Positions 4,371-56,475 of a stretch of DNA of 64,000 nt are shown here, in pieces. The translations under genes and the position numbers were made by a program. A model generated the notes under the pieces. The model was given only the letters and a program-made list of their open reading frames with translations, was not told the origin of the DNA and did no database searches. How positions within the stretch are numbered: position 1 is the first letter of the stretch; each line of letters starts with the position of its first letter. Source of the DNA: an uncultured Kiloniellales bacterium. Lineage in GTDB: Bacteria; Actinomycetota; Acidimicrobiia; Spongiisociales; UBA5794. The DNA lies in the NCBI GenBank assembly GCA_964195155.1, contig CAXMOP010000021.1, positions 7,007 to 71,006 on the forward strand. The letters are read 5' to 3'.

Positions 4371-4402
4371 CAGGAGCCCCCGTAAGGGGGCTCCTGCTTT
4401 TG
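4371..4402 (+). terminator. rho-independent terminator (CAGGAGCCCCC-GTAA-GGGGGCTCCTG + CTTTTG)
   Basis: Perfect 11-bp GC stem, 4-nt loop, followed by T-run. Confidence 0.6.
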
Positions 4403-4476
4403 AGTCGCGAGTCGCGAGTCGCGAGGCCCGATCCGACCTTTTTTGCTCGTGTCTCGCGTCTCGCGACTCGCGACTC
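4402..4476. repeat. heptad-repeat hairpin element: (GAGTCGC)x3 ... loop with TTTTTT ... (GCGACTC)x3
   Basis: Inverted arms of tandem 7-mers between convergent genes; right arm ends at permease stop. Confidence 0.8.
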
Positions 4477-13369: not shown

Positions 13370-13594
13370 TTGGCCAGAGGTGACGACACTTTCCGTACCC
13401 AGGGGACCATCGTTGAGACCCTGAGGAACGCGGAATTCCGTGTCGAGCTCGATTCCGGCCTGGAGGTCATCGCCAGAGCATCTGGGAAGATGCGGCGTGG
13501 CCGAGGGATCCGGATCATTGCCGGCGACAAGGTCGAGGTCGAGGTGTCAGCCTACGACCCGACCAAGGGCCGGATTGTCTGGCGGCATCGGTAG
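13370..13594 (+). CDS. infA: translation initiation factor IF-1
   Basis: S1-like fold sequence GTIVE...FRVELDSG.EVIARASGKMRR..IRIIAGDKVEVEVSAYDPTKGRIVWR; TTG start 6 nt after RRM stop. Confidence 0.85.
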   Translation: MARGDDTFRTQGTIVETLRNAEFRVELDSGLEVIARASGKMRRGRGIRIIAGDKVEVEVSAYDPTKGRIVWRHR

Positions 13595-13639
13595 ACAACA
13601 GTCGCGAGTCGCCAGTCGCGAGCCACGAGTCATAAGGAA

Positions 13640-13681: not shown

Positions 13682-14242
13682 ATGAAGCGGTTCCTCGCAT
13701 TGGTCGCAGTCGTCGTCGTGATCAGCACCGCGGTTGGTGTGGCGTTGGTCGTACGGCAGCGTCGGCGGCTGGGGAGGATGTCCGACGACGAGCTGCGCGC
13801 CGTACTCGAGGACAAGATCGGAGAGCGGGTGTCGCCCGAGCAGCTTGCACTGATCCAGGATGCAGTCGTCGCCAAGGTGCGCGGAAGCCGCTGGTCATCG
13901 TCGGGTGCGGTCACCGGCTCGGTGACGTATTCCGAACAGATCTCAATGCCACCCGACGCGGTCGTGATCGTCGAACTGCTCGATACGTCGCGGCTGGACG
14001 CCCCCTCCCAGCAGATTGGTGCACACGTGATCGATGACCCGCGATCCGTCCCCCTCTCTTACTCGATCGGGTTCGACCCTGCTGAGATCGTCGAGAGCCA
14101 CGGGTACTCGATCAGGGCCACGATCAGCGCCGACGACCGGCTGCTGTGGACTACCGACACCAACTACCCGGTGATCACCCGTGACAACCCGACGACCGTC
14201 GATCTGCTGTTGGTTGCGGTGACTGAGCCGGTATCGGAATAG
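13682..14242 (+). CDS. YbaY-family lipoprotein-like protein
   Basis: N-terminal TM/signal, motif VTGSVTYSEQISMPPDAVVIVELLDTSRLDAP...RATISADDRLLWTTD. Confidence 0.7.
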   Translation: MKRFLALVAVVVVISTAVGVALVVRQRRRLGRMSDDELRAVLEDKIGERVSPEQLALIQDAVVAKVRGSRWSSSGAVTGSVTYSEQISMPPDAVVIVELLDTSRLDAPSQQIGAHVIDDPRSVPLSYSIGFDPAEIVESHGYSIRATISADDRLLWTTDTNYPVITRDNPTTVDLLLVAVTEPVSE

Positions 14243-14352
14243 GAGGGTGTTGAACAATGACGAGTGCGCTGAGCCGCCGCTCGCTTGATTGTTGCGGTGA
14301 CTCGGTTTCTCCAGTCAGCGCCGGCACGCTGGAGGATTGCTCAACACCCTCC
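14241..14352. repeat. ~110-nt TIR element, family A copy 1 (TAGGAGGGTGTTGAACAATGACGAGTG...GGATTGCTCAACACCCTCCTA)
   Basis: Terminal inverted repeats; first 3 nt are the ybaY TAG stop. Confidence 0.85.
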
Positions 14353-14431
14353 TAGCCGCCCCAAATACACGCCACCCCCGACAAAGCCGGGGGCAGCGCG
14401 CCCCGAGTGGGGCCTGAGAGCGTCTTAGTGG

Positions 14432-24696: not shown

Positions 24697-24816
24697 GGCT
24701 GATCCCTCCTCGGTTGGTGGCGAGTGACCTTATCGAAGTTGGCGCGACGCCACGATGAGTCACCATCCCGAAGGTTCTCGAGATTAATGTCACGGCAACG
24801 TCCGAAGGGAGTCGCA

Positions 24817-25182
24817 GTGGACAACATCGATTGGAATAGTCTTTTGTTTCAGTTCGACGGCAGGATCAACCGGGGCAAGTTCTGGCTCGGCACGGTGATC
24901 ATCTGGGTGGCTTATATCGTGATCGTGGGCATCGCAGCGGCGGCCGAAGCGGTCCTGGTCTACGTGCTGGCTCTCCTGTTGATATGGCCCGGGCTTGCGG
25001 TGTCGATCAAGCGCTGGCACGACCGCGACAAGTCGGGCTGGTGGGTTTTGATCGGTCTGATCCCACTGATTGGCCCAATCTGGGCGTTCATCGAGACCGG
25101 TTTCCTCGAGGGGACCAGCGGTCCCAACGAGTACGGGCCCGACCCGCTTGGTGGTGGCGTCGCCGACGACATGGCGATGTAG
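24817..25182 (+). CDS. DUF805 inner-membrane protein (paralog 1)
   Basis: RINRGKFWLG ... KRWHDRDKSGWW motif; GTG start after GAAGGGA. Confidence 0.75.
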   Translation: MDNIDWNSLLFQFDGRINRGKFWLGTVIIWVAYIVIVGIAAAAEAVLVYVLALLLIWPGLAVSIKRWHDRDKSGWWVLIGLIPLIGPIWAFIETGFLEGTSGPNEYGPDPLGGGVADDMAM

Positions 25183-25243: not shown

Positions 25244-25609
25244 GTGGCTGATATTGACTGGATGGACCTGCTCTTTCAATTTGACGGAAGGATCAACCGC
25301 GCCAAGTTCTGGTTGGGGATCGTGGTCGTGGCAGTGATCAATGTCATTGCGTCGGCACTCTTTCGCGGAAACTCGGTCTTCATCGCGTTTCTGATCACCC
25401 TGGCGTTGCTGTGGCCGAGCCTGGCCGTCGCGATCAAACGCTGGCACGACCGCGACAAATCCGGCTGGTGGGTGTTGATCGTGCTGATTCCCCTGATCGG
25501 CTGGATCTGGGCGCTGATCGAAACCGGCTTCCTCGAGGGGACCAAGGGTCCCAACCAGTACGGGCCGGACCCGCTCGGAGGCGGTATCGCCGACGACATG
25601 GCGATGTAG
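25244..25609 (+). CDS. DUF805 inner-membrane protein (paralog 2, tandem duplicate)
   Basis: ~65% identical to previous gene incl. identical C-terminus. Confidence 0.8.
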   Translation: MADIDWMDLLFQFDGRINRAKFWLGIVVVAVINVIASALFRGNSVFIAFLITLALLWPSLAVAIKRWHDRDKSGWWVLIVLIPLIGWIWALIETGFLEGTKGPNQYGPDPLGGGIADDMAM

Positions 25610-26127: not shown

Positions 26128-26559
26128 ATGAGAACTCGTCCACCCCTCGACGAGCTTCGCCGAATCTACGCGGACAGCAAGACGATCGCGGTGGTGGGCG
26201 CCTCTCCCGATCCCGAAAAGCGCGCCCATGTCGTTCCCGCCTACCTCCAGGAACAGGGGTACCGGATCATCCCGGTGAATCCCAGGCACGAGGAAGTGCT
26301 TGGCGAGAAGGCCTATCCAACCCTGCTCGACATCCCCGAGCCCGTCGATGTCGTCGACGTGTTCCGCCCAGCAGACGAGGCGCCCGGCATCGCAGAAAAC
26401 GCCGCCGCCATCGGTGCCGGCGTACTGTGGCTCCAGGTCGGCATCGTCTCGGAGGAAGCAGGCGAGATTGCCGCTGCGTCCAACATGAGCTTCGTCATGG
26501 ACCACTGCATGGGCATGATGCACGCCAAGCTCGGCCTCGGCCCGGGACCGGACCACTGA
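26128..26559 (+). CDS. CoA-binding domain protein (YccU-like)
   Basis: KTIAVVGASPDPEKRAH...YRIIPVNP. Confidence 0.8.
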   Translation: MRTRPPLDELRRIYADSKTIAVVGASPDPEKRAHVVPAYLQEQGYRIIPVNPRHEEVLGEKAYPTLLDIPEPVDVVDVFRPADEAPGIAENAAAIGAGVLWLQVGIVSEEAGEIAAASNMSFVMDHCMGMMHAKLGLGPGPDH

Positions 26560-26562
26560 GTC

Positions 26563-26640
26563 AAGAGTCGCGAGTCGCGAGCCTGACTTCCGGCTCTGGA
26601 CTCTCGACTCCGGACTCAGGACTTTTCCAGCGCCAGCTCC
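26563..26640. repeat. heptad/hairpin repeat element (GAGTCGC x2; CCTGACTTCCGG...CCGGACTCAGG)
   Basis: Between convergent CoA-binding and lon genes. Confidence 0.6.
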
Positions 26641-28928: not shown

Positions 28929-28945
28929 GTGGCGTGTCCTTTCTT

Positions 28946-29019
28946 GAGTCACGAGTCACGAGTCGCGAGTCGCGAGCCAATCCCGCAATTCTCGCGACTC
29001 GCGACTGGCGACTCGCGTC
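28946..29019. repeat. heptad-repeat hairpin (GAGTCAC/GAGTCGC x4 ... CTCGCGACTCGCGACTGGCGACTCGCG)
   Basis: Inverted arms upstream of lon. Confidence 0.8.
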
Positions 29020-29177
29020 TTCTCTTTGGGTTGACTTGAACCGTAGGGCGAAATTCGGTATTCCCTGACGGTCCTGGGGCGTCGTCGGGATCGGTCCGAA
29101 ACTCTTGCGGAGCAACGGTTCTGGAATTCTGTCACACCCGGCCGGCACGATGTACCCATGAGGAAAGGAGAGCAGCG

Positions 29178-30295: not shown

Positions 30296-30548
30296 TTTCT
30301 TTGCCTCCCCCTCAGGGGGAGGTGCCGAGCGCCAGCGAGGCTGAGGGGGTCAAGGCGTTGTCGCGACCACGGTTTGACCCCCCTCCCCGCCTGCGGCGGG
30401 ACTCCCCCCTGGGGGGGAGCAACGAGAACGCCGCGGCGGTGAGCCCAACGATCGTCGTACTGTCGCGAAACACGACACCCTTAGGGGAGGCAAAGAAGTC
30501 GCCTCACAAGCGACGGGAGGAAACGGGCGGGGAGGGGGCTTAGCGCTG
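30296..30548. repeat. GC-rich multi-hairpin repeat, family C locus 1 (CCTCCCCCTCAGGGGGAGG...GGGGGTCAAGGCG...TTTGACCCCCC...GGGACTCCCCCCTGGGGGGGAG...)
   Basis: Shared with 39285-39605 and 59040-59400. Confidence 0.85.
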
Positions 30549-31498: not shown

Positions 31499-31828
31499 AT
31501 GGAGATCAAGGTCATTGAAGCCTGTTGCGATCCGGTGCTGATCGAGCCGCTGGCTGAGGGAGAGGCCAGCGAGCTCGCTTCCGGATTCAAGGTACTGGCG
31601 GACCCGGTCCGGCTCAGGCTGCTCAGCCTGGTCGCCAATGCCCCCGACGGCGAGCTGTGTGCCTGCGATGTGGTCGACACGATCGGACGCAGCCAGCCAA
31701 CGGTGAGTCATCACCTGTCGATCCTGGCCGGGGCAGGATTGCTGATCCGCGAACAGCGGGGGAAGTGGGCGTACTTCCGCGTCGACCCCGATCGGGTCGC
31801 CGTGTTACGGGACGCGCTCGCGATCTGA
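31499..31828 (+). CDS. arsR: ArsR/SmtB family metalloregulator
   Basis: HTH ...LVANAPDGELCACDVVDTIGRSQPTVSHHL with ELCxC metal site; divergent from arsM. Confidence 0.85.
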   Translation: MEIKVIEACCDPVLIEPLAEGEASELASGFKVLADPVRLRLLSLVANAPDGELCACDVVDTIGRSQPTVSHHLSILAGAGLLIREQRGKWAYFRVDPDRVAVLRDALAI

Positions 31829-31841
31829 GCGCGGCCGCCCT

Positions 31842-31954
31842 TAGGACGGTGATGAACAATGACGAGTGCTAGGGGCCGCCGCTTGCTCGGATGATCCGGT
31901 GACTTGGTTTCTCCCGACAGCAGCGGCCCGCTGGTGGATTGCTCACCACCCTCC
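31842..31954. repeat. family A TIR element copy 2
   Basis: TAGGACGGTGATGAACAATGACGAGTGC...GGATTGCTCACCACCCTCCTA. Confidence 0.8.
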
Positions 31955-32014
31955 TACGCGATTCTCATCGGCGTCGCAGCCGTTTCCGCTGCCGCCGCCA
32001 TATGCTCGGCCGCC

Positions 32015-32941
32015 ATGACACGCGCAGGAACGATCATTGCGGTCGGAGCACTGGTGCTCGCCGCCTGCGGGGGCGACAGCATCGCGGCGACCGTCAACGA
32101 CACCGAAATCACCACCGCCGACGTCGAAGGCTTACTCATCGAGATCTCCGACTTCGACCGTACGCCGCAACAGTTCGCCACCTTCCTCGGGCTGACCATT
32201 CAGTGGGAGGCCATTGACCAACGCGTCACCGATGAACTCGGGTTCGAACCCTCGGAGGAAGAGATCGACGCCGAGATCCGCAGGCTGGTCATCGACGCAG
32301 GCTTCCTCGACATACCGTCGTTTCTCGCCCAGCAGAACATCTCGGAGGCTGCGCTGCATCGCCTGGCGAGTCAGATCGCCATCGAGCAGCACCTCCACGA
32401 GTTGTTGGGTCCTGACGTAGAGGCACCGGGCGACCAAGAAGTTCAACAGGAGCTCGACGAGAGCCCCGAGCGCTGGGTCGAGGAAGTATGTGCGTCCCAC
32501 ATCCTGGTGGCCACCCTTGAAGAAGCCGAGGCCGCGCTGGTTCGCCTCGACGCCGGAGAGGATTTTGGCGACCTCGCTTCAGAGCTGTCGATCGACACCT
32601 CGAATGCGGAAAGTGGCGGCTCGCTCGGCTGCGCGGACCCAATCGGTTACGTGCCGGAGTTCGCCCTGGTGACGGCGACGGAACCGATCGGCGAAGTGGC
32701 CGGTCCGGTGGAGACCCAGTTCGGAGCTCACCTCATCCTGATTGAGTCGCGCCAGTCCACGCCATTCGAAGAGATCCGCGACGCCCTCAAAGAGCTGCGC
32801 ACGGTCGATGCGGTTTCCGATTGGCTGACCGAAGCCGTGAAGATGGCAGCGGTGACGGTCGACGAGTCCCGCGGCACCTGGGTCATCGAGCCCGAGCCCC
32901 ATGTGCAGCCTCCGCCTGAGCTCCGCGAGGACGAACAGTGA
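32015..32941 (+). CDS. parvulin-type peptidyl-prolyl isomerase lipoprotein (PrsA/SurA-like)
   Basis: Lipobox LAAC; PpiC block CASHILV...GGSLGC; last codons and TGA lie inside family A repeat. Confidence 0.75.
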   Translation: MTRAGTIIAVGALVLAACGGDSIAATVNDTEITTADVEGLLIEISDFDRTPQQFATFLGLTIQWEAIDQRVTDELGFEPSEEEIDAEIRRLVIDAGFLDIPSFLAQQNISEAALHRLASQIAIEQHLHELLGPDVEAPGDQEVQQELDESPERWVEEVCASHILVATLEEAEAALVRLDAGEDFGDLASELSIDTSNAESGGSLGCADPIGYVPEFALVTATEPIGEVAGPVETQFGAHLILIESRQSTPFEEIRDALKELRTVDAVSDWLTEAVKMAAVTVDESRGTWVIEPEPHVQPPPELREDEQ

Positions 32942-33032
32942 CGAGTGCCACGTCCGCCGCTTGCTCGGATGATCCGGTGCCTCGGTTTCTCCCGACCGCA
33001 GCCCCCGCTGCAGGATTGCTCACCCACCCTCC
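32927..33032. repeat. family A TIR element copy 3 (5' arm partly coding)
   Basis: GAGGACGAACAGTGACGAGTGCC...GGATTGCTCACCCACCCTCC. Confidence 0.75.
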
Positions 33033-33072
33033 GAGCAAGTACTACCCGGGGGCGATCGAATAGCCTGGCCGC

Positions 33073-33855
33073 ATGATCGAGGCCTATTTCGATAGGGACG
33101 AAGGCGATTGGTTTGTCCCGACCGATTATTCGCGGGGACCCTGGGTTGATGATGCATGCCATGCAGGACCGCCGACCGGCTTGCTGGCCCGTGCCATGGA
33201 GCAGATCGTCACCGACCAGCGAATGACGCGCATCACGGTGGAGCTCATGCGCCCGATCCCGATGCGGGGCTTCCGGGTGCTGGCATCGATGGTCAAGCTC
33301 GGCCGCTCGGCGAGCGTCACCGAGGCCGAATTGTCCGATGACGACGGCATCTACGCCCGGGCCCACGGCCTCCATATGCGCGAGCTCGACCATCTTGCGG
33401 TGTCGATCGCCGACGACCTTGCACCGGATTTCGAAGCGTCCGAGCCGGGACCATTCCCGATTCAGCCACCACATGGCCTTGCGGCGTTCAACGACTCGGT
33501 GGAGTGTCGCTACGACCCGTCCACCAGGCCGGGGGGCGGGCCGTCGACGATGTGGATGAGGACCAAGGTCCCTTTGCTGCAGGGTGAGAAACCAAGCCCG
33601 TTTCAGGCCATCTGCCCGCTGGCCGATTGTCTGAACGGCATTTCCTACAACGATCCGATCGAAGAGGTGTGGTTCGTCAACGCCGATCTCACGTTGTCGC
33701 TGCACCGCGATCCAACGGGTGAATGGTTCTGCGCACAAGCCGTGTCGCTGTGGGAGCCCTCCGGAATCGGCCTCGCCCACGCCGCGCTCTTCGACACCGA
33801 GGGTTCGGTTGGCAGGGCGACTCAGAATCTTCTCTTGAGCGCGATCGACGGCTAG
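33073..33855 (+). CDS. acyl-CoA thioesterase-family protein (4HBT_3/TesB-like)
   Basis: Double hot-dog organisation. Confidence 0.6.
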   Translation: MIEAYFDRDEGDWFVPTDYSRGPWVDDACHAGPPTGLLARAMEQIVTDQRMTRITVELMRPIPMRGFRVLASMVKLGRSASVTEAELSDDDGIYARAHGLHMRELDHLAVSIADDLAPDFEASEPGPFPIQPPHGLAAFNDSVECRYDPSTRPGGGPSTMWMRTKVPLLQGEKPSPFQAICPLADCLNGISYNDPIEEVWFVNADLTLSLHRDPTGEWFCAQAVSLWEPSGIGLAHAALFDTEGSVGRATQNLLLSAIDG

Positions 33856-35352: not shown

Positions 35353-36210
35353 TCAGTCGTTGAGGGCGGCGGCAATGGCTGCGTATTTGTCGAGCTTGTC
35401 GATCACGACCTCGCGATCGACCGATGGCAATCCGAACACCACCCTGGTCACACCAAGGTCTCGCATCATCTCGAGTTGCTCGAGATCGCGCGGCGCCTGC
35501 CAGGCCGTCAGCTCCAACGAATTGGGATCGCGGCCGGCGGTTTCCATGGCGGCCCGAACTTCCCCGATCTTGCCGGCCATCTCGTGTCTGACGACGATCG
35601 GCATCCACCCGTCACAGAACTCGGCGATGTCGCGCATCGTCCTCGGGCCGGCGCCACCGCCGAGGATGATCGGCGGGTGCGGCTTCTGCGTTGGCTTCGG
35701 CCATTGCCAGGATGGCGTGATATCGACGTGGTCGCCGTGGTACTCGGCCTCGTCCTTCGTCCACAGCTCGATCATGGCCAGCACCTTCTCGCGCAGGATC
35801 GCCCGCCGGTCGGTGTAGGCGACGTGGTGATTGGCCAGCTCTTCTTTGTTCCACCCATATCCGATCCCGAACAGCACCCGCCCATTCGAGATCACGTCGA
35901 GTGAGGCCACCTGTTTGGCCAGCCACAACGGGTCGTGTTGGGCCACCAGGGTGATGCCCGTGCCCAGTTTGACCGTGTCGGTGACCGCGGCGCAGGCCGC
36001 CAGGGCGATGAGCTGGTCGTGCGTTCTCCAGTACATCTCGGGTAGCTCGGCGGCACCGTCGATGCCTCCCCATGGGGTCTTCCGTGAGATCGGGATGTGG
36101 CTGTGCTCGGGAAACCACAGAGACTCGAAACGGCGCGCCTCGACCTCCCTGGCCAGATCCACCGGCTGGATGGTCTTGTCGGTGGGAAAGATCGAGACGC
36201 CGATGTGCAT
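35353..36210 (-). CDS. LLM-class F420-dependent oxidoreductase
   Basis: MHIGVSIFPTDK...FESLWFPEH; ATG 36210 preferred (TTG 36246 lies in repeat). Confidence 0.8.
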   Translation of the reverse strand: MHIGVSIFPTDKTIQPVDLAREVEARRFESLWFPEHSHIPISRKTPWGGIDGAAELPEMYWRTHDQLIALAACAAVTDTVKLGTGITLVAQHDPLWLAKQVASLDVISNGRVLFGIGYGWNKEELANHHVAYTDRRAILREKVLAMIELWTKDEAEYHGDHVDITPSWQWPKPTQKPHPPIILGGGAGPRTMRDIAEFCDGWMPIVVRHEMAGKIGEVRAAMETAGRDPNSLELTAWQAPRDLEQLEMMRDLGVTRVVFGLPSVDREVVIDKLDKYAAIAAALND

Positions 36211-36300
36211 GCCAGTAGCTAAGTAGCTGAGTAGCCAAGTAGCCAAGTCCTGGTCAACGGCTTTCCTCTTTTCTTCGCTACTTCGCTACTTGGCTACTGC
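36211..36300. repeat. heptad-repeat hairpin (AGTAGCY x5 ... CTACTTSG x4)
   Basis: Inverted arms in divergent promoter region. Confidence 0.75.
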
Positions 36301-39284: not shown

Positions 39285-39605
39285 GGCATCAGGGGGAGGT
39301 GCCGAGCGCCAGCGAGGCGGAGGGGGTCAAGGCGTGGTCGCGGCCACGCCTTGCGGCGGGACTCCCCCCTGAGGGGGGAGCAAAGAAAGGGCCGCGGCGC
39401 CACGGCTTTACCCCCCTCCCTTCTCGGGAAGGTGGCGACAACAGCGAGGTGGCTTCTTTGCCTCCCCCTCAGCTCAGGGGGAGGTGCCGAGCGCCAGCGA
39501 GGCGGAGGGGGTCAAGGCGTGGTCGCGGCAACGGTTTGACCCCCCTCCCCGCCTTGCGGCGGGACTCCCCCCTTGAGTTGAGGGGGGATCAAAGAAAGGG
39601 CCGCG
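39285..39605. repeat. family C GC-rich multi-hairpin repeat, two tandem units
   Basis: CATCAGGGGGAGGTGCCGAGCGCCAGCGAGGCGGAGGGGGTCAAGGCGTGGTCGCGG... x2. Confidence 0.85.
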
Positions 39606-39608
39606 GCG

Positions 39609-40781
39609 CTAGTCCGGCAGCGAAAACGCCACCAGCCCGCCGGGGCCTGGCTCTGCCCAGATGTGTCCGCCAAGCTCCTCGACCAGTTCCCTGGCGACTG
39701 CCAGCCCGAGGCCCGCACCTCCGGTCGATCGGGAGCGAGCCGGATCGGCTCTGGCGAACTCGTCGAAGGCCGCCTCGGTAAAGGAGGGCGGAAAGCCCGG
39801 CCCCTCGTCGGCGACCGTGACGGTTGCCGGCATCTCGACGGTGACCGTGATCTCCGAGCCGGACGGGGCGTGCCTGATCGCGTTGTCCAACAGATTCCGG
39901 ATCACCCGACCGATCGGCGCTGGTCCGGTATTGATCACAGAGGTTCCGTCAGTGTCGAGGCGGACGTTGACACCGGCTTGCCGCGACACCGGCGCCAGCA
40001 CCTCGATCGCCTCGTCGACGATCTCGGCGAGATCCACCGGCATCCGCTCGTACTCGAACCCTCCTGACTCGATGCGAGCGAGCAGAAACAGGTCGTCCAC
40101 GAGCTGGTTCAGCACCCGGGTGTCGCCCTCAATCGAAGCCAGGTATCGATCCGGGTCGGATGCCACACCGTCCCGCAACGCCTCAGCAGCGGCCTGGAGT
40201 GCGGCGAGCGGGGAGCGGAGGTCGTGGCTTACCGATGCGAAGAATCGCCGGCGAGCCTCATCGTCACGAGCTCGCTCGATGTCGAGGGCGGCAAGCTCCC
40301 GTGCCATTTCATCGACCGCATGCGCAGTGGACCCGACCTCGTCGGCGCGGTCGACCCCGGTTCTTGCGGTGAGGTCCCCGCCGGCAATTCGGGATGCTGT
40401 TTCCGCAACGCTGCGGAGATCCTCGGTCCAAGGTTTGGCGACCGATACAGCAAAGCTCAGGCCGGCGACCAGGCCGAGTCCGAGAACGACGATGAGCAGC
40501 TGGGCGTCGTGCGTCGACAGGAACATCCGCTGCGCAGAGACCACCGCGCCGACGATGACGATCAGCAGAGCGGTGGCGATGAGCGCGATCAGCGTTCCAC
40601 GCAGCGAGGTCGCCCGGCGTGCCCACCGGGGCAATGCCCAGGCGGCGACGGCTGCGGCGACGACCATGCCGAGAAGGATGGCGAGCAGCTCGACCCGTTC
40701 AGCCCCCGACGGCTGCATGCCGATCTCGAAAAGGGCGACGCCCACGAGGACAGCAGCGACGGCGAGTCCCAGGATCCTCAT
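39609..40781 (-). CDS. sensor histidine kinase
   Basis: 2 TM, HAMP, H-box SVSHDLRSPLAAL, HATPase_c; ATG 40781 overlaps RR stop (ATGA). Confidence 0.85.
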   Translation of the reverse strand: MRILGLAVAAVLVGVALFEIGMQPSGAERVELLAILLGMVVAAAVAAWALPRWARRATSLRGTLIALIATALLIVIVGAVVSAQRMFLSTHDAQLLIVVLGLGLVAGLSFAVSVAKPWTEDLRSVAETASRIAGGDLTARTGVDRADEVGSTAHAVDEMARELAALDIERARDDEARRRFFASVSHDLRSPLAALQAAAEALRDGVASDPDRYLASIEGDTRVLNQLVDDLFLLARIESGGFEYERMPVDLAEIVDEAIEVLAPVSRQAGVNVRLDTDGTSVINTGPAPIGRVIRNLLDNAIRHAPSGSEITVTVEMPATVTVADEGPGFPPSFTEAAFDEFARADPARSRSTGGAGLGLAVARELVEELGGHIWAEPGPGGLVAFSLPD

Positions 40782-42658: not shown

Positions 42659-42773
42659 TAGGAGGGTGTTGAGCAATCCTCTAGCGTGCGGGGGCTGACT
42701 GGAGAAACCGAGTCACCGCAACACTCAAGCGAGCGGCGGCTCAGGGCACTCGTCATCGTTCAATACCGTCCTA
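42659..42773. repeat. family A TIR element copy 4 (reverse orientation); terminal CTA is methyltransferase stop on minus strand
   Basis: TAGGAGGGTGTTGAGCAATCC...CGTTCAATACCGTCCTAG. Confidence 0.85.
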
Positions 42774-43535
42774 GGTCTTGCGGGCCCGCCAGATCTCTTC
42801 AGAGGGCCATCGGTGTGCCCACGCTGCGTCGACATGGTCCCAATCGGTAACGGCTTCCTTCGGCGCTTGGAGCTCGATCAGATCGAGGATCTCAAATCCG
42901 CTGTCTCTCAGAAGCCGGATCCGGTCGCCGTGACTGAGATGGAACTCCACCCCATCGTCCTCGATCTCCGGCCAGTCGTAGCGGTGCATTCCGAACTGGC
43001 TGCGGAGGAGTCGAGGCCCCGCCGCCTCGCCTTCGCGGTCGGGCACGCACAGGATGAACAGCGTGGAGTTGCCCAGGAATATGAGCTCGCCGCCCGTCCG
43101 AAGCACCCTGGCAGCCTCCGGGATCCAGAGATACTGGTCGGACCAGATCGCCGAGCCGTACTCGGAGATGACCACATCAAATGACTCATCGCGAAAGGGG
43201 AGCCGCTCGGCGATGCCGTGGATGAGCGGAAATGCCAGGTTGTGTTGTTCCTGCATGCGCTTGGCCGTAGCGAGCTGGCCTTGGGAGTTGTCGAGGCCGA
43301 TCGGCATACCGCCAAGCTTGGCGATCCAGGCAGACACATAACCGGTGCCGCAGCCGTCCTCGAGCACTGCCTTGCCCGCGATGTCGACGAGCAGGCCGAC
43401 CTCGGCCTCAGGGACGCCCCAGATGCCCCAGCTGGGATCGCTCGTCCAGTTGCGATCCGCCCACTCGGCGAACTGTGGCGCCTGGTCATTCCAGAAGCTG
43501 CGGTTGCCCTCGACGTAGTCCGGCGTCTCGGTTAC
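42771..43535 (-). CDS. class I SAM-dependent methyltransferase; conserved N-terminus has no ATG/GTG/TTG, possible GTA start at 43535 overlapping upstream TAA
   Basis: Motif I VLEDGCGTG; in-frame upstream NRSFWNDQAPQFAEW...WGIWGVPEAEVGLLVDIAGK resembles family N-term; first canonical start (GTG 43367) is inside motif I. Confidence 0.55.
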   Translation of the reverse strand, partial: VTETPDYVEGNRSFWNDQAPQFAEWADRNWTSDPSWGIWGVPEAEVGLLVDIAGKAVLEDGCGTGYVSAWIAKLGGMPIGLDNSQGQLATAKRMQEQHNLAFPLIHGIAERLPFRDESFDVVISEYGSAIWSDQYLWIPEAARVLRTGGELIFLGNSTLFILCVPDREGEAAGPRLLRSQFGMHRYDWPEIEDDGVEFHLSHGDRIRLLRDSGFEILDLIELQAPKEAVTDWDHVDAAWAHRWPSEEIWRARKT

Positions 43536-44407: not shown

Positions 44408-44449
44408 GAGCTCCACCCTACAAAGCGTCGTAGTCATATCTCCCGGGGG

Positions 44450-44632
44450 GAGTCGCGAGTCGCGAGTCGCGAGCTATGACCGAATCGCTTCTCGATACAG
44501 AACTCGCGATCAGGCAGTCGGGCGGCGAGCCCCTGCGAGCCGCCCAACAAACATGACCGAATCGCTTCTCGATACAGAACCCGCGATCAGGCAGTCGGGC
44601 GGCGAGCCCCTGCGAGTCGCCCATGGGAATGG
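44450..44632. repeat. (GAGTCGC)x3 heptads followed by two tandem copies of ~72-nt family D unit (ATGACCGAATCGCTTCTCGATACAGAACYCGCGATCAGGCAGTCGGGCGGCGAGCCCCTGCGAGYCGCCCA)
   Basis: Direct comparison 44474-44552 vs 44553-44632. Confidence 0.85.
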
Positions 44633-44670: not shown

Positions 44671-45654
44671 ATGCGCTATGGAGCTTTCATCCCGCAGGGC
44701 TGGCGTCTCGACCTCATGGGCATCGACCGCCACGAGCAATGGCCGACAATGCTTGCCGTCGCAAGAGACATCGAGGCCGCCGGTTACGAATCGCTGTGGG
44801 TGTTCGATCACTTCCACACGGTCCCGATCGGCACACAGGAGTCCAGCTACGAAGCATGGACGCTGATGGCGGCCCTTGCCGCCACCACCGACACGGTGAG
44901 AATCGGTCAGATGTGCACATCGATCGCGTACCGCAACCCGGCCTACCTGGCGAAGATCGCGGCGGACATCGACGTGATCTCCAACGGCCGTCTCGAGATG
45001 GGAATCGGCGCCGGCTGGTACCAGGAGGAGTACGACGGCTACGGCTACGACTTCCCCAAGCCATCGGTACGCATCGGGGAGCTCCAGGAGGGCGTCGAGA
45101 TCATGCGCCGGATGTGGACCGAGGACGAGGTCGAGTACGACGGGAAGTACTTCACGCTCCACGGTGCGATCGCGAATCCGAAACCGATCCAGGGATTGCT
45201 GCCGATGTGGATTGCCGGCGGCGGCGAGCAACTCACCCTCCGTGTCGCTGCCAGATACGCCGACTACACAAACTTCGGGCTCGAGCTCGACGCCTTCGCG
45301 CATAAGAGCGAAGTGCTTGCAGATCACTGTCGGGCGGTCGGACGAGATTTCGACGAGATCGTGCGTTCGGTGAACTTCACCGTGCTCATCGACGAGGATC
45401 AGCAGGTCGTCACCGACAAGCTCGACGAGATCGAGACACGGATGACGAAGCTGGTCGGCGCCGAAAAAGCGGAGCGAACGCGAGCCACGTACGAGAAGCA
45501 CGGGCTCATTGGCACACCGGACCAGATCATCGAGCAGCTCGGCCCCTGGCAAGACGCCGGGATGCGCTACATCATCGGTTACTTCCCCGACGCCGCCTAC
45601 GACCGCACCAGCCTCGATCTGTTCGCGAAGATCAGTAGATCAGTAGCTGAGTAG
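44671..45654 (+). CDS. LLM-class F420-dependent oxidoreductase
   Basis: MRYGAFIPQGWR...ESLWVFDHF. Confidence 0.85.
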   Translation: MRYGAFIPQGWRLDLMGIDRHEQWPTMLAVARDIEAAGYESLWVFDHFHTVPIGTQESSYEAWTLMAALAATTDTVRIGQMCTSIAYRNPAYLAKIAADIDVISNGRLEMGIGAGWYQEEYDGYGYDFPKPSVRIGELQEGVEIMRRMWTEDEVEYDGKYFTLHGAIANPKPIQGLLPMWIAGGGEQLTLRVAARYADYTNFGLELDAFAHKSEVLADHCRAVGRDFDEIVRSVNFTVLIDEDQQVVTDKLDEIETRMTKLVGAEKAERTRATYEKHGLIGTPDQIIEQLGPWQDAGMRYIIGYFPDAAYDRTSLDLFAKISRSVAE

Positions 45655-45750
45655 ATCAGTAGCTGGGTAGATCAGTGTCTGCCTTAGCTACTTGGTCTGC
45701 CTTAGCTACTTGGCTACTTCGCTACTTCGCTACTGCTTCGCTACTTCGGT
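45630..45750. repeat. heptad/octad-repeat hairpin (GATCAGTAGM x5 ... CTACTTSGC x6)
   Basis: Inverted arms of tandem units; left arm encodes last codons of LLM. Confidence 0.75.
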
Positions 45751-53702: not shown

Positions 53703-53798
53703 GTCGCGAGTCGCGAGTCGCGAGTCGCGAGTTACGAGTCGCGAACGACTCGTCGCTTGTCATGCTCGCGTCTCGCGTCTCGCGACTCGCGACTTCTC
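53703..53798. repeat. heptad-repeat hairpin (GAGTCGC x5 ... GCGACTC-type x4) inserted between paaD and paaE
   Basis: Direct reading; both arms intragenic-operonic. Confidence 0.85.
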
Positions 53799-54860: not shown

Positions 54861-55444
54861 GCAGAACCACCAGAGACGACGTCGTCGCTGCCGCCGGGCG
54901 CCTGTTCGCTGAACGCGGCTATCACGGAACTTCAATGCGGGATCTTGGCCGCGAACTTGGACTCCTCGGCTCGTCGCTGTACTCACACGTCGAAGGCAAA
55001 CAGCAGTTGCTCGTCGAGGTGGTCGACCGCGGCGCCGGCTTCTTTCAGGATGCCGCCGAGGCGGCGCTGGCGAGCGAGGGGTTGGCCGCTGCTCGGCTCC
55101 GTGCACTCATTGCCGGGCACATCGGCGTGGTGCTGGACCATCGACCGGAGGTGCGGACCTACCTCAACGAGGCATCGGTGCTCGACGGCGACCTGCGCGA
55201 CGGCGTGATCGCCGCCCGCGACCGGTACGAGGAAGCGTTTCGGACCGTGCTCAAGGAGGGCTCTGCCGATGGCTCCTTCCGTGGCGACATCGACATTGCG
55301 ATGGCCGCGATCTTCATCCTCTCGATCCTGAACGCCGTAGATCGCTGGTATCGCGAGGACGGCCGGATGAACCGCGGTGAACTGGTCGATCACCTGTTTC
55401 TGTTCGTGATCAAGGGGCTCACCGAGGAGGGTGCTCAACAATGA
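54857..55444 (+). CDS. TetR/AcrR family transcriptional regulator (likely paa regulator)
   Basis: N-terminal HTH ...FAERGYHGTSMRDL; last 7 codons + TGA supplied by family A repeat. Confidence 0.85.
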   Translation: MSRTTRDDVVAAAGRLFAERGYHGTSMRDLGRELGLLGSSLYSHVEGKQQLLVEVVDRGAGFFQDAAEAALASEGLAAARLRALIAGHIGVVLDHRPEVRTYLNEASVLDGDLRDGVIAARDRYEEAFRTVLKEGSADGSFRGDIDIAMAAIFILSILNAVDRWYREDGRMNRGELVDHLFLFVIKGLTEEGAQQ

Positions 55445-55494
55445 CGGGTGCGATGAGCCGGCGCGTGCGCGAGAGTTGGGCGGCTTATCCCATC
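55425..55494. repeat. family A element copy 5 (truncated/diverged 5' half)
   Basis: GAGGAGGGTGCTCAACAATGACGGGTGC... Confidence 0.6.
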
Positions 55495-55495
55495 C

Positions 55496-55530
55496 ACGCC
55501 GGCCCGCGACTCTGGACTCTCGACTCTCTC
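55496..55530. repeat. short tandem GACTCTN heptads (CGACTCTGGACTCTCGACTCTCTCT)
   Basis: Direct reading. Confidence 0.6.
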
Positions 55531-55610
55531 TAGCCGGGAATCAGCTCCACTTGGTCCTGGTTGCTCGAATGCCGGATCACAACCACACCACCAATCCGAG
55601 GAGCTGGACG

Positions 55611-56363
55611 ATGGCCGAGACGCGAGGCAGGGTCAGGGTCGAAGACGGCCACAAACGAGTACGGGTCTACCTCGGTGGCGAGGTCGTCGCAGACTCGGTG
55701 AGCCCGAAATACGTGTGGGAACGGCCGTACTACCCGACCTACTACTTCCCGGCGGCAGACGTTCGCACGGATCTGTTGGTCGACACCGGCGACACCTACC
55801 GATCGCCGAGCCGGGGCACCGCATCCGTGCACACCGTCAAGGCGGGTGGTCGGGAGGCATCGGCTGCGGTACGGGTTTGGGACCAGGCCGAGATCGATGA
55901 GATCAAGGGCTACGTCTCGTTCAACTGGAACGCCATGTCGCGTTGGTTCGAGGAGGAAGAAGAGGTGTACGTCCATGCCCGCGACCCGTACAAGCGCGTC
56001 GATATTCTCCAGTCGTCCCGTCACATCGAGGTGGTGATCGACGGCGCGACCGTCGCCGACTCGCACCAGCCGAAGCTCCTCTTCGAAACTGGTCTGCCGG
56101 TGCGCTACTACTTGCCGAAGACCGACGTTCGCCTGGATCTGCTCGTTTCCTCCGACACCGCGACCAGCTGTCCCTACAAGGGAGATGCGGAGTACTGGCA
56201 TGTGCGTACCGCCGACGGACTGGTCGAGGACATCGTCTGGTCGTATCCGACTCCGGTCGCTGAGTCGGCGCCGATAGCCGGCTATGTCTCGTTCTACAAC
56301 GAGAAAGTCGACATCATCGTCGACGGCGAGCTCGAGGCCCGGCCGGAAACGGTATTCAGCTAG
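55611..56363 (+). CDS. DUF427 domain protein (two tandem DUF427 domains)
   Basis: Repeated blocks ...VRVYLGGEVVADS / IEVVIDGATVADS and GYVSFxxxxxD. Confidence 0.7.
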   Translation: MAETRGRVRVEDGHKRVRVYLGGEVVADSVSPKYVWERPYYPTYYFPAADVRTDLLVDTGDTYRSPSRGTASVHTVKAGGREASAAVRVWDQAEIDEIKGYVSFNWNAMSRWFEEEEEVYVHARDPYKRVDILQSSRHIEVVIDGATVADSHQPKLLFETGLPVRYYLPKTDVRLDLLVSSDTATSCPYKGDAEYWHVRTADGLVEDIVWSYPTPVAESAPIAGYVSFYNEKVDIIVDGELEARPETVFS

Positions 56364-56475
56364 GAGGGTGTTGAGCAATCCTCCAGCGTGCCGACGCTGA
56401 CTGGAGAAACCGAGTCACCGCAACACGCAAGCGAGCGGCGGCTCAGGGCATTCGTCATTGTTCAACACCGTCCTA
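56361..56475. repeat. family A TIR element copy 6 (reverse orientation, ~93% identical to copy 1); supplies TAG stop
   Basis: TAGGAGGGTGTTGAGCAATCC...CATTGTTCAACACCGTCCTA. Confidence 0.85.

What the first reader, a model, noticed from the sequence alone, without database searches (positions are those of the whole stretch)
14241..14352. Family of ~110-nt TIR elements that sit at gene ends or supply stop codons (six copies)
Copies lie at 14241-14352, 31842-31954, 32927-33032, 42659-42773, 55425-55494 (truncated) and 56361-56475. All share ~17-nt imperfect terminal inverted repeats, TAGGAGGGTGTTGA(A/G)CAAT ... ATTGCTCAACACCCTCCTA, and a conserved interior (CAATGACGAGTGC ... CCGCCGCT(C/T)GCT ... 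CGGTTTCTCC ...). They are bounded by TA(G). In four cases the terminal TAG or the internal caaTGAcgag provides the host gene's stop codon and last codons (ybaY, DUF427, TetR, PPIase, and the methyltransferase on the minus strand). This looks like a MITE or structured-RNA family that targets or creates 3' ends.
Basis: seen in the sequence. Interest (0 to 1): 0.6.

Follow-up and report, generated by a model that had tools for sequence, protein, structure and literature searches.

The report
New small transposon inserting at TAG stops
The six repeats are copies of a 115-base non-coding "jumping" DNA element (a MITE) in an uncultured Acidimicrobiia-like bacterium; it inserts at the TA of TAG, usually CTAG, so it mostly lands on stop codons without damaging the gene, which makes it a tidy but ordinary kind of mobile element.

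Summary
Six copies of a ~115-nt element with 19-nt terminal inverted repeats lie at the stated coordinates (nhmmer E 1e-37 to 3e-8). A seventh lies in a distant Acidimicrobiia MAG.

It is a MITE. At four of the six sites (c2, c3, c5, c6) syntenic contigs from related organisms carry clean empty sites. Each empty site has one TA where the window has TA-element-TA, so the target-site duplication is TA. All seven targets read TAG. Four of the six fully determined targets are CTAG, and five of the seven targets are the stop codon of a gene.

The element starts with G, so insertion into TA|G rebuilds TAG and the gene keeps its stop. In two older copies the T mutated (TAG to GAG). PPIase and TetR then read 5-6 codons into the element, to an in-frame TGA.

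CTAG is 5.5-fold depleted in this genome and 29% of the CTAG sites are stop codons. That explains the link with gene ends without any recognition of 3' ends.

There is no covariation and no Rfam match, so a selected RNA structure is not supported.

The termini resemble IS5-family ends, while the TA duplication fits IS630 or the IS427/ISL2 groups. No transposase partner was found.

This is a new family of a known kind, of modest interest.

The parts
14240..14354 (+). Copy c1 (young subfamily A), intact. TA at both ends. Its first three bases, TAG (14240-14242), are the stop codon of the YscW/YbaY-like lipoprotein gene 13682-14242. Target reconstructed as ATAG.
   Evidence: nhmmer E 3.5e-37; perfect TIRs; Pfam PF09619 for the upstream gene; flanks. 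No empty site was available for this copy.
31842..31956 (+). Copy c2 (subfamily B), intact. It lies in the spacer between the ArsR-type gene (stop 31826-31828) and the PPIase gene (likely start 32015). The target TTAG is not a stop codon.
   Evidence: nhmmer E 1.2e-35. The empty site with a single TA reads ...CACTTAGACGATTCTCATCGG in L096 and ...CATTAGCCGATTCTCATCG in L094; the window reads ...CCCTTA[element]TACGCGATTCTCATCGG.
32927..33034 (+). Copy c3 (subfamily B), old. Both flanking TA dinucleotides are now GA, and the left TIR has a 3-nt deletion. It was inserted in the TAG stop of the PPIase gene. The gene now reads REDEQ into the element and stops at the element's TGA (32939-32941).
   Evidence: nhmmer E 4.9e-26. 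In relatives L094 and L096 the gene ends ...GAGCTCGGCTAG with no element. Translation.
42659..42773 (-). Copy c4 (subfamily A), intact. On the minus strand its first TAG (42773-42771) is the stop of the methyltransferase gene 42771-43367. Target CTAG. It lies upstream of the RskA anti-sigma gene.
   Evidence: nhmmer E 4.6e-36; Pfam. The copy is identical in five independent assemblies, and two short contigs end inside it. The syntenic relative L094 lacks the methyltransferase gene, so no empty site is available.
55424..55532 (+). Copy c5, old and divergent. Family homology runs 55424-55507, followed by a (GACTCTN)3 array and then TA. It was inserted in the TAG stop of the TetR gene. The left TA is now GA, so TetR gains EEGAQQ and stops at the element's TGA (55442-55444).
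   Evidence: nhmmer E 2.7e-8. The empty site in L084 reads ...GGGGCTCACCTAGCCGGGAATCAGC, and the spacer is also short in L087 and L088. A 17-nt exact match of the 3' part to the heptamer array at 26594-26610 is.
56361..56475 (-). Copy c6 (subfamily A), intact. It lies between the convergent DUF427 (+) and DivIVA-like (-) genes. The plus-strand TAG at 56361-56363 is the DUF427 stop. Target CTAG.
   Evidence: nhmmer E 3.6e-37. The empty site in L084 reads ...GTGTTCAGCTAGCCC; in L085 the gene ends ...AGTTAG; the DUF427-DivIVA gaps in L084, L085 and L088 are only 7-18 nt and the two genes overlap in L087. NCBI contig CAXMNS010000032.1 begins inside this copy.

Best explanation
[quoted passage not shown] They are moved in trans by a DDE-type transposase encoded elsewhere. 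The presumed transposase would recognise the 17-nt ends GGAGGGTGTTGA(A/G)CAAT, insert the element at a TA, and duplicate that TA; only the end sequences and the TA duplication are observed here. It strongly prefers TA inside TAG, usually CTAG. The element's own first base is G and its last base is C. Insertion into C-TA-G therefore gives C-TA-[G...C]-TA-G, and a TAG stop codon that was hit is rebuilt in frame in either orientation, leaving the gene unharmed. CTAG is very rare in this 64% G+C genome and a large share of the sites are stop codons. Target preference plus selection against hits inside genes therefore puts most surviving copies exactly on gene ends. In the forward orientation an in-frame TGA follows six codons later (TAG GAG GGT GTT GAA CAA TGA). 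If the TAG decays, the protein gains only 5-6 residues, which is what happened to the PPIase and the TetR regulator. Shown here: insertion polymorphism with exact boundaries, the TA duplication, the target sequence, the rebuilt stops and the two C-terminal extensions. Inferred: which transposase moves it, and that copies are transcribed in 3' UTRs or spacers, where they could fold into a long hairpin. Any effect on expression is untested.
For: There are six copies in 64 kb, in both orientations, with E-values of 1e-37 to 3e-8, and the end motif is found 9 times against 0.01 expected. Empty sites with a single TA exist for c2, c3, c5 and c6 in syntenic contigs of relatives with 78-93% protein identity: L084, L085, L087, L088, L094 and L096. 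The base before the left TA varies (A, T, C, T in the four intact copies), while the element-side bases are constant. The duplication is therefore TA and not a 4-bp CTAG. All seven targets read TAG on the gene strand. Four of the six fully determined targets are CTAG, although only 38 of the 865 TA sites (4.4%) in the window lie in CTAG. Five of the seven targets are stop codons. These include the copy in the Acidimicrobiia MAG BMS9Abin07 (L026), which sits on the TAG of a full-length Cys/Met PLP enzyme gene. CTAG is 5.5-fold depleted (38 seen, 211 expected) and 11 of the 38 sites are stop codons; TAG is the stop of 23 of 53 genes in a crude GC3-based gene call made for this analysis. The age structure is that of a mobile family: c1, c4 and c6 are 93-95% identical, c2 is 80-83% identical to them, and c3 and c5 are 49-75% identical to other copies. 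About 40 kb of the syntenic relative scaffold (L085 plus L094) holds none of the five copies c2-c6. The L026 copy is 77-82% identical to c1, c2, c4 and c6, although the two hosts' PPIase proteins are only 54% identical. Three independent assemblies break contigs inside a copy, as expected for a repeat. The family meets the published definition of bacterial MITEs: under 200 bp, TIRs, TA at the termini, a TSD and a stable stem-loop (PMC2229807; fold of -41 to -61 kcal/mol for the four intact copies, z -2.2 to -5.6).
Against: No autonomous partner was found. There is no transposase with these ends in the window, and none was seen in the roughly 60 kb of non-window sequence fetched from the same organism, syntenic relatives and the BMS9Abin07 MAG (nhmmer found only the known copies; Pfam on the ORFs lying in seven of the larger intergenic gaps found none). 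Mobilisation in trans is therefore inferred. The pattern scans of the representative-genome and metagenome collections gave only one real extra copy. The genome-wide copy number is unknown, and the host genome itself was not in those two collections. No empty site could be obtained for c1 or c4. All insertions that could be checked are fixed in the sampled strains, so there is no direct sign of ongoing movement. The 3' end of c5 is a heptamer array rather than a recognisable TIR, which the simple model does not explain.
Confidence: 0.85

Rival explanations
1. It is a conserved, structured cis-acting RNA (a 3'-UTR or terminator module, or a small RNA) kept at gene ends by selection, rather than a mobile element.
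For: Intact copies fold into a long terminal stem with two interior hairpins, well below shuffled controls (z down to -5.6). The interior hairpins use G-U pairs that exist only on the forward strand. Six of seven copies point the same way as the gene whose end they touch.
Against: Relatives have clean empty sites with a TA duplication. The reverse strand folds almost as well (-58.4 against -61 kcal/mol), as expected for DNA inverted repeats. Rfam gives no match at gathering thresholds and only a 15.7-bit chance hit at E 0.29. The RNAalifold covariation term is unfavourable (+2.08), and the two interior helices have no compensatory changes and lose pairs when they vary. There is no T-run after the stem, and the terminator scan finds none at the element ends. 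With only seven sequences the covariation test has little power.
Confidence: 0.05
2. The element is a MITE, but derived specifically from an IS630/Tc1-mariner-type insertion sequence, like RUP of pneumococcus.
For: It has a TA duplication at TA targets, as reported for RUP and IS630-Spn1 (PMC2229807). It prefers CTAG, which from my own recollection is the classical IS630 target. Its size, about 110 bp, is the same as RUP and the short Correia element.
Against: No IS630-family transposase or matching ends were found. The ends look like IS5-family ends rather than what I recall of IS630 ends.
Confidence: 0.35
3. The element is a MITE derived from an IS5-family insertion sequence, from a subgroup that duplicates 2-3 bp (such as IS427 or ISL2).
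For: The ends GGAGGGTGTTGAACAAT resemble the IS5 ends GGAAGGTGCGAA(T/C)AAG read here from E. coli (7 of the first 8 bases plus GAACAA, with one gap). They also resemble the IS5-family ISPsy19 end GAGGGTGTAGACAAAAT (PMC3189936). MITEPsy1 (assigned 'IS5?' in that paper) inserts at CTAG or YTAA, and an IS5-group element in Mycobacterium, an actinobacterium, duplicates CTAG (PMC9241763).
Against: The 4-bp duplication typical of the IS5 group proper is not seen. In c1, c2 and c6 the flanking 4-mers differ and only TA is shared. The end similarity covers only about 17 nt and could be chance. That some IS5 subgroups duplicate 2-3 bp rests on my recollection of ISfinder, not on a test made here.
Confidence: 0.45
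4. The repeats are REP/BIME-type palindromes spread by a RAYT enzyme, integron attC sites, or an artefact of local duplication or assembly.
For: They are palindromic, sit just after genes and are clustered (six in 64 kb). The ends contain GTTGAAC / GCTCAAC, which superficially fit the attC core motifs.
Against: REPs are 20-40 nt and make no target duplication; here there are 115 nt, 19-nt TIRs and a TA duplication. The insertions add only the element, not a gene cassette, and the flanking genes are ancestral and syntenic in relatives. The same copies appear in independent ENA, JGI, NCBI and Logan assemblies and in a different MAG, so this is not an assembly or local-duplication artefact.
Confidence: 0.02

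Closest known systems
RUP (repeat unit of pneumococcus, 107 bp), thought to be moved by IS630-Spn1
   Same: Non-coding element of about 110 bp with terminal inverted repeats and a TA target and duplication. It occurs as many dispersed, mostly intergenic copies and is presumed to be mobilised in trans (PMC2229807).
   Different: Different phylum (Firmicutes against Acidimicrobiia-like Actinomycetota) and unrelated sequence. RUP has 9-bp TIRs (19 nt here) and a known candidate partner IS. RUP tends to land in IS elements rather than on stop codons.
Correia / NEMIS elements of Neisseria (107 and 155 bp)
   Same: TIRs of about 24 bp, TA at the termini, and filled and empty sites between strains. 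Transcripts form long hairpins. The short form is often fused to neighbouring reading frames (PMC2229807).
   Different: Correia RNA hairpins are documented RNase III substrates, and some copies carry IHF sites or promoters. None of that is shown here. There is no sequence similarity, and no rule of rebuilding TAG stops has been reported for Correia in what I read.
MITEPsy1 (listed as 'IS5?'; possibly derived from ISPsy2) of Pseudomonas syringae, and IS5-group elements of Mycobacterium
   Same: MITEPsy1 is a 100-nt MITE with 18-nt TIRs beginning GGAAGGT, and it inserts at CTAG or YTAA (PMC3189936). The IS5-group element ISMysh01 of Mycobacterium shottsii duplicates CTAG (PMC9241763). The ends here resemble IS5-family ends.
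   Different: Those elements duplicate 4 bp. Here only TA is duplicated, and the C and G next to it belong to the element.
ERIC/IRU and related enterobacterial small mobile sequences
   Same: Elements of about 100-170 bp with TA termini, transcribed with neighbouring genes, and sometimes contributing codons to reading frames (PMC2229807, PMC2759123).
   Different: ERIC TIRs are short (7 bp). The host group differs. No CTAG or stop-codon preference is described in the text I read.

Membership tests
Bacterial MITE (as defined in PMC2229807) | Small (under about 200-300 bp) and without a conserved coding capacity | tested here: met
   The element is 115 nt. No frame is open in all copies: the ATG frame is open in c1, c4 and c6 but stopped in c2. 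A six-frame peptide profile found no protein in 5.8 billion sequences.
Bacterial MITE (as defined in PMC2229807) | Terminal inverted repeats | tested here: met
   The ends are 19 nt including TA. There are 9 matches to the end motif against 0.01 expected, all at copy ends.
Bacterial MITE (as defined in PMC2229807) | Target-site duplication shown by filled versus empty sites | tested here: met
   Relatives carry a single TA where the window has TA-element-TA at c2, c3, c5 and c6. c1 and c4 could not be tested.
Bacterial MITE (as defined in PMC2229807) | Multiple dispersed copies in both orientations, in more than one genome | tested here: met
   There are six copies in the window (4 plus, 2 minus), one in the MAG BMS9Abin07, and contig breaks inside copies. 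The genome-wide count is not known.
Bacterial MITE (as defined in PMC2229807) | An autonomous IS with the same ends that supplies the transposase | not testable with these tools
   None is present in the window or in the fetched loci.
IS630/Tc1-mariner-derived MITE | TA duplication at a TA target, classically within CTAG | tested here: met
   The duplication is TA. Four of the six fully determined targets are CTAG, against 4.4% of TA sites. This feature is not exclusive to IS630.
IS630/Tc1-mariner-derived MITE | Ends matching those of an IS630-family element | not tested
   No IS630-family element from these organisms was available for comparison.
IS5-family-derived MITE | Ends resembling IS5-family ends (GGAAGGTG... 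or GAGGGTG...) | tested here: inconclusive
   About 13-14 of 17 bases match the IS5 ends read from E. coli, with one gap. There is also similarity to the ISPsy19 end. The match is short and could be chance.
IS5-family-derived MITE | 4-bp duplication (YTAR or CTAG) of the IS5 group proper | tested here: not met
   The flanking 4-mers differ in c1 (ATAG/CTAG), c2 (TTAG/CTAC) and c6 (TTAG/CTAG). Only TA is shared. Subgroups that duplicate 2-3 bp are not excluded.
Known structured RNA family (Rfam 15) | Match to a covariance model at or near the gathering score | tested here: not met
   There were 0 matches over the whole window at gathering thresholds. The best hit on c1 was 15.7 bits against a gathering score of 55.
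REP/BIME (RAYT-dependent) repeats | Palindromes of 20-40 nt without a target duplication, associated with a RAYT gene | tested here: not met
   The element is 115 nt with 19-nt TIRs and a TA duplication. No Y1-transposase hit appeared among the 28 window ORFs scanned against Pfam; this was not a full gene-by-gene scan of the window.

The most novel reading that the evidence does not exclude
The family may be more than a passive parasite. Its ends (TA|G...C|TA), its in-frame backup TGA and its apparent co-orientation with the upstream gene (6 of 7 copies, or 7 of 7 if c6 is counted relative to the DivIVA-like gene ending 11 nt upstream) could have been shaped by selection, letting it colonise stop codons harmlessly. 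Copies could also act as a transcribed 3'-UTR or spacer hairpin module that changes mRNA stability, insulates neighbouring genes, or donates short C-terminal tails. That would amount to a 'stop-codon-homing' MITE with a host-level role in an uncultured actinobacterial lineage.
Probability: 0.12. Interest if true: 0.5.

Novelty: new member of a known kind. Interest (0 to 1): 0.3.

Why it matters
This gives a clean, sequence-level example of how a transposon's target preference can look like gene-end targeting. The preference is for TA inside the rare tetranucleotide CTAG. Because the element begins with G, hitting a TAG stop costs the gene nothing. When the stop later decays, the element donates a new stop and a 5-6-residue tail, as seen in the PPIase and the TetR regulator.

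There are practical consequences for annotation and assembly of these uncultured Acidimicrobiia-like genomes. The repeat breaks contigs. It has caused a start codon to be called inside a copy (a 335-aa PPIase in the NCBI record) and a spurious 30-aa ORF.

An 82%-identical copy sits in a host whose orthologous PPIase is only 54% identical. This suggests either horizontal spread of the element or an active partner in both lineages. It does not open a new class of biology.

Tried and rejected
1. A pattern scan of 185,579 representative genomes gave 61 hits, of which only one (L026) was a real copy by nhmmer. The host genome is not in that collection.
2. A pattern scan of JGI metagenome contigs gave 22 hits, none real.
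3. Two scans of viral contigs gave nothing. A blastn search of plasmids also gave nothing.
4. A profile of the six-frame translations of four copies, searched against 5.8 billion proteins to find gene calls running through other copies, gave nothing at E up to 1.
5. Extending 9 kb to the right of the window, and fetching a syntenic 12-kb locus of the BMS9Abin07 MAG, yielded no further copies.
6. A look-up of the c1 flanking protein found no exact match, probably because a different start was called. c1 therefore has no empty-site or strain test.
7. A weak nhmmer hit at 169-201 (E 0.029) is an unrelated small palindrome.
8. A literature search for the end sequence found only unrelated primer matches.
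9. The attC/integron and REP readings were considered and rejected on anatomy and on the empty sites.
10. The idea that the PPIase gene starts inside c2 was rejected. The lipoprotein signal peptide begins at 32015, and relatives have the same N-terminus without the element.
11. A 4-bp CTAG duplication was considered and rejected, because the outer bases differ between the two sides in three of the four intact copies.
Full report

Yes. Aligning the six stated segments showed that two of them (42659-42773 and 56361-56475) are in reverse orientation. Once these were flipped, all six align along their whole length with 45 invariant columns. A profile built from five copies and run over the whole window with nhmmer recovers exactly six significant matches:

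| Copy | Coordinates | Strand | E-value |
|---|---|---|---|
| c1 | 14240-14354 | + | 3.5e-37 |
| c2 | 31842-31956 | + | 1.2e-35 |
| c3 | about 32927-33034 | + | 4.9e-26 |
| c4 | 42659-42773 | - | 4.6e-36 |
| c5 | 55424-55507 (homologous part) | + | 2.7e-8 |
| c6 | 56361-56475 | - | 3.6e-37 |

The next hit has E 0.029 and is an unrelated small palindrome at 169-201. The 19-nt end motif TAGGAGGGTGTTGARCAAT occurs nine times at up to three mismatches, against 0.01 expected, and always at a copy end.

**2. Gene context**

Pfam scans of the flanking ORFs give the following picture.
- The YscW/YbaY-like lipoprotein gene 13682-14242 ends in the first TAG of c1.
- An ArsR-type gene ends 13 nt before c2.
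- A PPIC-type PPIase ends at 32941, on a TGA inside c3.
- An acyl-CoA thioesterase gene follows c3.
- A methyltransferase gene (42771-43367, minus strand) ends in the first TAG of c4.
- A TetR gene ends at 55444, on a TGA inside c5.
- A double-DUF427 gene ends at 56363, on the plus-strand TAG of c6.
- A DivIVA-like gene converges on c6 from the other side.

One detail is wrong: the long ORF that appears to start inside c2 is not the PPIase start. The protein's lipoprotein signal peptide (MTRAGTIIAVGALVLAACGG) begins at 32015.

**3. Where the window comes from**

The gene content is actinobacterial: RskA anti-sigma factor, DivIVA, F420-type luciferase-like enzymes and others.

Exact-protein look-ups place the same organism in several assemblies: NCBI MAG GCA_964194755.1, ENA assemblies ERZ27250394 and ERZ27250328, and JGI metagenomes 3300027872 and 3300024521. 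Homologues of the flanking proteins that carry a source name are labelled Acidimicrobiia, Nitriliruptorales or Actinomycetota MAGs.

The only other genome in which I found the element is the MAG 'Acidimicrobiia bacterium BMS9Abin07' (L026, nhmmer E 4e-28).

**4. Empty sites: the decisive test**

I fetched syntenic contigs from relatives through orthologues of the DUF427 protein and the PPIase.

- **c6.** The window reads ...TTCAGC TA [GGAGGG...CCGTCC] TA ACG... The 93%-identical relative L084 reads ...TTCAGC TAG CCC... with an 18-nt spacer. L085 and L088 have 7- and 14-nt spacers and in L087 the two genes overlap; none carries the element.
- **c5.** L084 reads ...GGGGCTCACC TAG CCGGGAATCAGC... 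The window reads ...GGGGCTCACC GA[GGAGGG...109 nt...] TAG CCGGGAATCAGC....
- **c2.** L096 reads ...CCCACT TA GACGATTCTCATCGG and L094 reads ...CGCAT TA GCCGATTCTCATCG. The window reads ...CGCCCT TA [element] TA CGCGATTCTCATCGG.
- **c3.** In L094 and L096 the PPIase gene ends ...GAGCTCGGC TAG. The window reads ...GAGCTCCGC GA GGAC...[element]...CCCTCC GA GCAAG.

Four of four testable sites are therefore precise insertions at a TA, with TA on both sides afterwards.

About 40 kb of one relative scaffold (L085 plus L094), syntenic with the part of the window that holds c2-c6, contains no copy at all. c1 and c4 could not be tested. The c1 flanking protein was not found by exact look-up. The methyltransferase gene next to c4 is absent from the relative.

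**5. Size of the duplication and the target**

In the four intact copies the base before the left TA is A, T, C or T. The base after the left TA is always G, and the base before the right TA is always C. That G and C therefore belong to the element, and the duplication is 2 bp (TA). A 4-bp CTAG duplication would need mismatches in c1, c2 and c6.

Targets reconstructed from empty sites or flanks:

| Copy | Target | Stop codon hit |
|---|---|---|
| c1 | ATAG | YbaY-like gene |
| c2 | TTAG | none (intergenic) |
| c3 | CTAG | PPIase |
| c4 | CTAG | methyltransferase |
| c5 | CTAG | TetR |
| c6 | CTAG | DUF427 |
| L026 | CTA(N) | full-length Cys/Met PLP enzyme gene |

Every target reads TAG on the gene strand, four of the six fully determined targets are CTAG, and five of seven are stop codons.

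After masking the elements, the window holds 865 TA sites, of which only 38 (4.4%) lie in CTAG. Base composition alone would predict 211 CTAG sites, so the tetranucleotide is 5.5-fold depleted. Eleven of the 38 are stop codons, 10 are inside genes and 17 are intergenic. TAG is the stop of 23 of 53 genes in a crude GC3-based gene call made for this analysis.

- If the element took any TA outside genes, stop codons would be about 11% of the available sites, and four of six window copies on stop codons would be unlikely (about 2e-3 by my arithmetic on the counts).
- If it prefers CTAG, stop codons are about 39% of the tolerated sites and the observed share is expected (about 0.17).

The link with gene ends therefore follows from target sequence plus purifying selection. 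Recognition of 3' ends need not be invoked.

**6. What happens to the genes that are hit**

The element begins with G, so TA|G becomes TA-G(GAGGG...) and the stop codon is rebuilt. This holds in either orientation, since both ends read TAGGAGG. c1, c4, c6 and the L026 copy show this state.

In the forward orientation the frame that continues from the stop reads TAG GAG GGT GTT GAA CAA TGA, giving a second in-frame stop six codons on. In c3 and c5 the T of the TAG has mutated to G. The PPIase now ends ...REDEQ and the TetR protein ...EEGAQQ, at the element's TGA. Their orthologues in relatives end at the original TAG.

The element therefore did not create the TAG stops. It did donate the present stop and short tails of these two proteins.

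**7. Age structure and spread**

c1, c4 and c6 are 93-95% identical to each other and form a young subfamily. c2 is 80-83% identical to them. c3 is closest to c2 (75%). c5 is at most 66% identical to any other copy.

The DUF427 gene of the closest relative that lacks c5 and c6 is 88.7% identical in nucleotides and 75.7% identical at third codon positions. There has therefore been ample time for the decay seen in c3 and c5 after insertion.

The L026 copy is 77-82% identical to c1, c2, c4 and c6, although the PPIase of that MAG is only 54% identical to the window's. Its syntenic ArsR-PPIase-thioesterase locus has no copy. This points to horizontal spread of the element or its partner, or to an active master copy in both lineages, rather than vertical inheritance of one old insertion.

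c4, c5 and c6 are present in every strain-level contig long enough to tell. The c4 copy is identical across five independent assemblies. One NCBI contig starts inside c6, and two short contigs end inside c4, one of them switching to a c6-like variant. This is the usual signature of a dispersed repeat in short-read assemblies.

**8. Is it a structured RNA?**

The four intact copies fold into a 19-bp terminal stem with two inner hairpins (-41 to -61 kcal/mol, z -2.2 to -5.6). The reverse strand of c1 folds almost as well (-58.4 kcal/mol), as expected for DNA inverted repeats. The decayed c3 does not fold better than shuffled sequence.

Other tests:
- Rfam gives nothing at gathering thresholds over the whole window, and only a 15.7-bit chance hit on c1.
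- On the seven-copy alignment, RNAalifold's covariation term is unfavourable (+2.08).
- For the c1 structure, the counts of double-sided changes and the covariation score are within the shuffled range (47/500 and 88/500).
- The two inner helices have no compensatory change, and most variation breaks pairs.
- The simple terminator scan finds no terminator at the element's ends, and no T-run follows the stem.

Nothing here supports a selected RNA structure, although seven sequences give little power. Copies sit between a stop codon and the next gene or a downstream hairpin, so they are probably transcribed. Effects like those described for Correia or ERIC elements are possible but untested (PMC2229807).

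**9. Which transposase?**

None is in the window or in the fetched flanks. Only copy ends match the end motif. Pfam found nothing on the ORFs lying in seven of the larger intergenic gaps. The only IS seen nearby is an IS3-type (rve) insertion in one strain variant.

The TA duplication and CTAG preference fit IS630/Tc1-type elements, the presumed source of RUP. The CTAG preference of IS630 itself is from my own knowledge.

The ends, however, resemble IS5-family ends.
- IS5, read here from an E. coli genome, ends in GGAAGGTGCGAATAAG and GGAAGGTGCGAACAAG. The element's ends are GGAGGGTGTTGAACAAT and GGAGGGTGTTGAGCAAT.
- ISPsy19 (IS5 family) ends in GAGGGTGTAGACAAAAT, and MITEPsy1 (assigned 'IS5?' in that paper) inserts at CTAG or YTAA (PMC3189936).
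- An IS5-group element in Mycobacterium duplicates CTAG (PMC9241763).

The 4-bp duplication of the IS5 group proper is not met here. From my recollection of ISfinder, subgroups that duplicate 2-3 bp (IS427, ISL2) remain possible. I leave the parent family open, leaning slightly towards IS5-like.

**10. Comparison with known elements, and novelty**

The family meets every testable criterion of a bacterial MITE as summarised by Delihas (PMC2229807): small size, TIRs, TA termini, a target duplication shown by filled and empty sites, dispersed copies, and a stable stem-loop. It works like RUP, Correia, ERIC and MITEPsy1.

It shares no sequence with anything I could find: Rfam, plasmids, viral contigs, representative genomes apart from one MAG, the metagenome collection, a protein-space search, and a literature search for the end sequence. 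It is therefore a new family of a well-known kind.

The stop-codon behaviour is neat: the TAG is rebuilt, a backup TGA follows, and two proteins gained short tails. It is nevertheless a predictable result of a (C)TAG target in a high-G+C genome where CTAG is rare.

One hint is left open. Six of seven copies point the same way as the gene whose end they hit, or seven of seven if c6 is counted against the DivIVA-like gene that ends 11 nt before its left end. With n = 7 this is not significant (about 0.06 one-sided).

**Verdict.** The MITE interpretation is supported, and the structured-RNA alternative is not. The confidence scores are 0.85 for the MITE reading and 0.3 for interest.

Noticed in passing
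window 30311-30440, 39288-39400, 39473-39610, 59045-59196, 59247-59391: A second, unrelated intergenic repeat family. It is G/C-rich and palindromic, about 130-200 nt long (CTCAGGGGGAGGTGCCGAGCGCCAGCGAGGCGGAGGGGGTCAAGGCG...CCTTGACCCCCCTCCCCGCC...GGGACTCCCCCCTGAGGGGGGAG), and often occurs as tandem pairs about 200 nt apart. G-rich sequence of a similar kind fills the RskA-HisF spacer of the relative L094.
   Followed up: no
window 4395-4475, 13591-13636, 26550-26623, 28945-29020, 44442-44473, 53700-53794: Arrays of the heptamer GAGTCGC begin at or right after stop codons (TGAGTCGCGAGTCGCGAG...). An inverted array (GCGACTC)n lies 30-60 nt further on, so each pair would form a long hairpin at a gene end. 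The 3' end of MITE copy c5 (55508-55530) is such an array and shares 17 exact bases with 26594-26610. How it came to replace the right TIR is unexplained.
   Followed up: partly
window 36205-36251 and 45625-45679: Tandem octamers (CAGTAGCT / AAGTAGCT variants) full of TAG, TAA and TGA in several frames, located at gene ends.
   Followed up: no
window 44476-44546, 44553-44623, 59410-59480: A 71-nt repeat: two adjacent copies at 97% identity and a third at 68% identity about 15 kb away.
   Followed up: no
L085 9787-9960 (relative scaffold ZHEN22-1 scaffold_287): At the same TetR stop-codon site where the window carries c5, this relative has a different insertion of about 150 nt between ...GGGCTCACC and TAGAAGGGAATCAGC. 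Its TetR protein now ends at a nearby TGA. The insert shows no similarity to the MITE by nhmmer. The same TAG may have been hit independently by another element.
   Followed up: partly
window 33073-33855 and 42771-43367, compared with L094: The thioesterase gene after c3 and the methyltransferase gene before c4 are both missing from the syntenic relative L094. The thioesterase is present at the same place in the distant MAG (L100), so it looks ancestral and lost in L094.
   Followed up: partly
L093 10001-11008; L089 9831-9923: Public gene calls are disturbed by the element. The NCBI record starts the PPIase inside c2 (335 aa instead of about 308), and a 30-aa ORF is called inside c5.
   Followed up: yes
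L098 2417-3225 (ENA ERZ27250139 k141_2984289): One strain variant of the same organism carries an IS3-type (rve / rve_3) insertion and a rearranged left flank next to the Yip1 gene. It is unrelated to the MITE.
   Followed up: no
whole window: CTAG is 5.5-fold under-represented (38 seen, 211 expected), and TAG is the commonest stop codon (23 of 53 genes in a crude GC3-based call), ahead of TGA (21). There are no tRNA genes in the 64 kb.
   Followed up: partly
window 24724-25182 and 25244-25609: Two adjacent DUF805 genes are tandem paralogues, with 83% identity over 205 nt.
   Followed up: no
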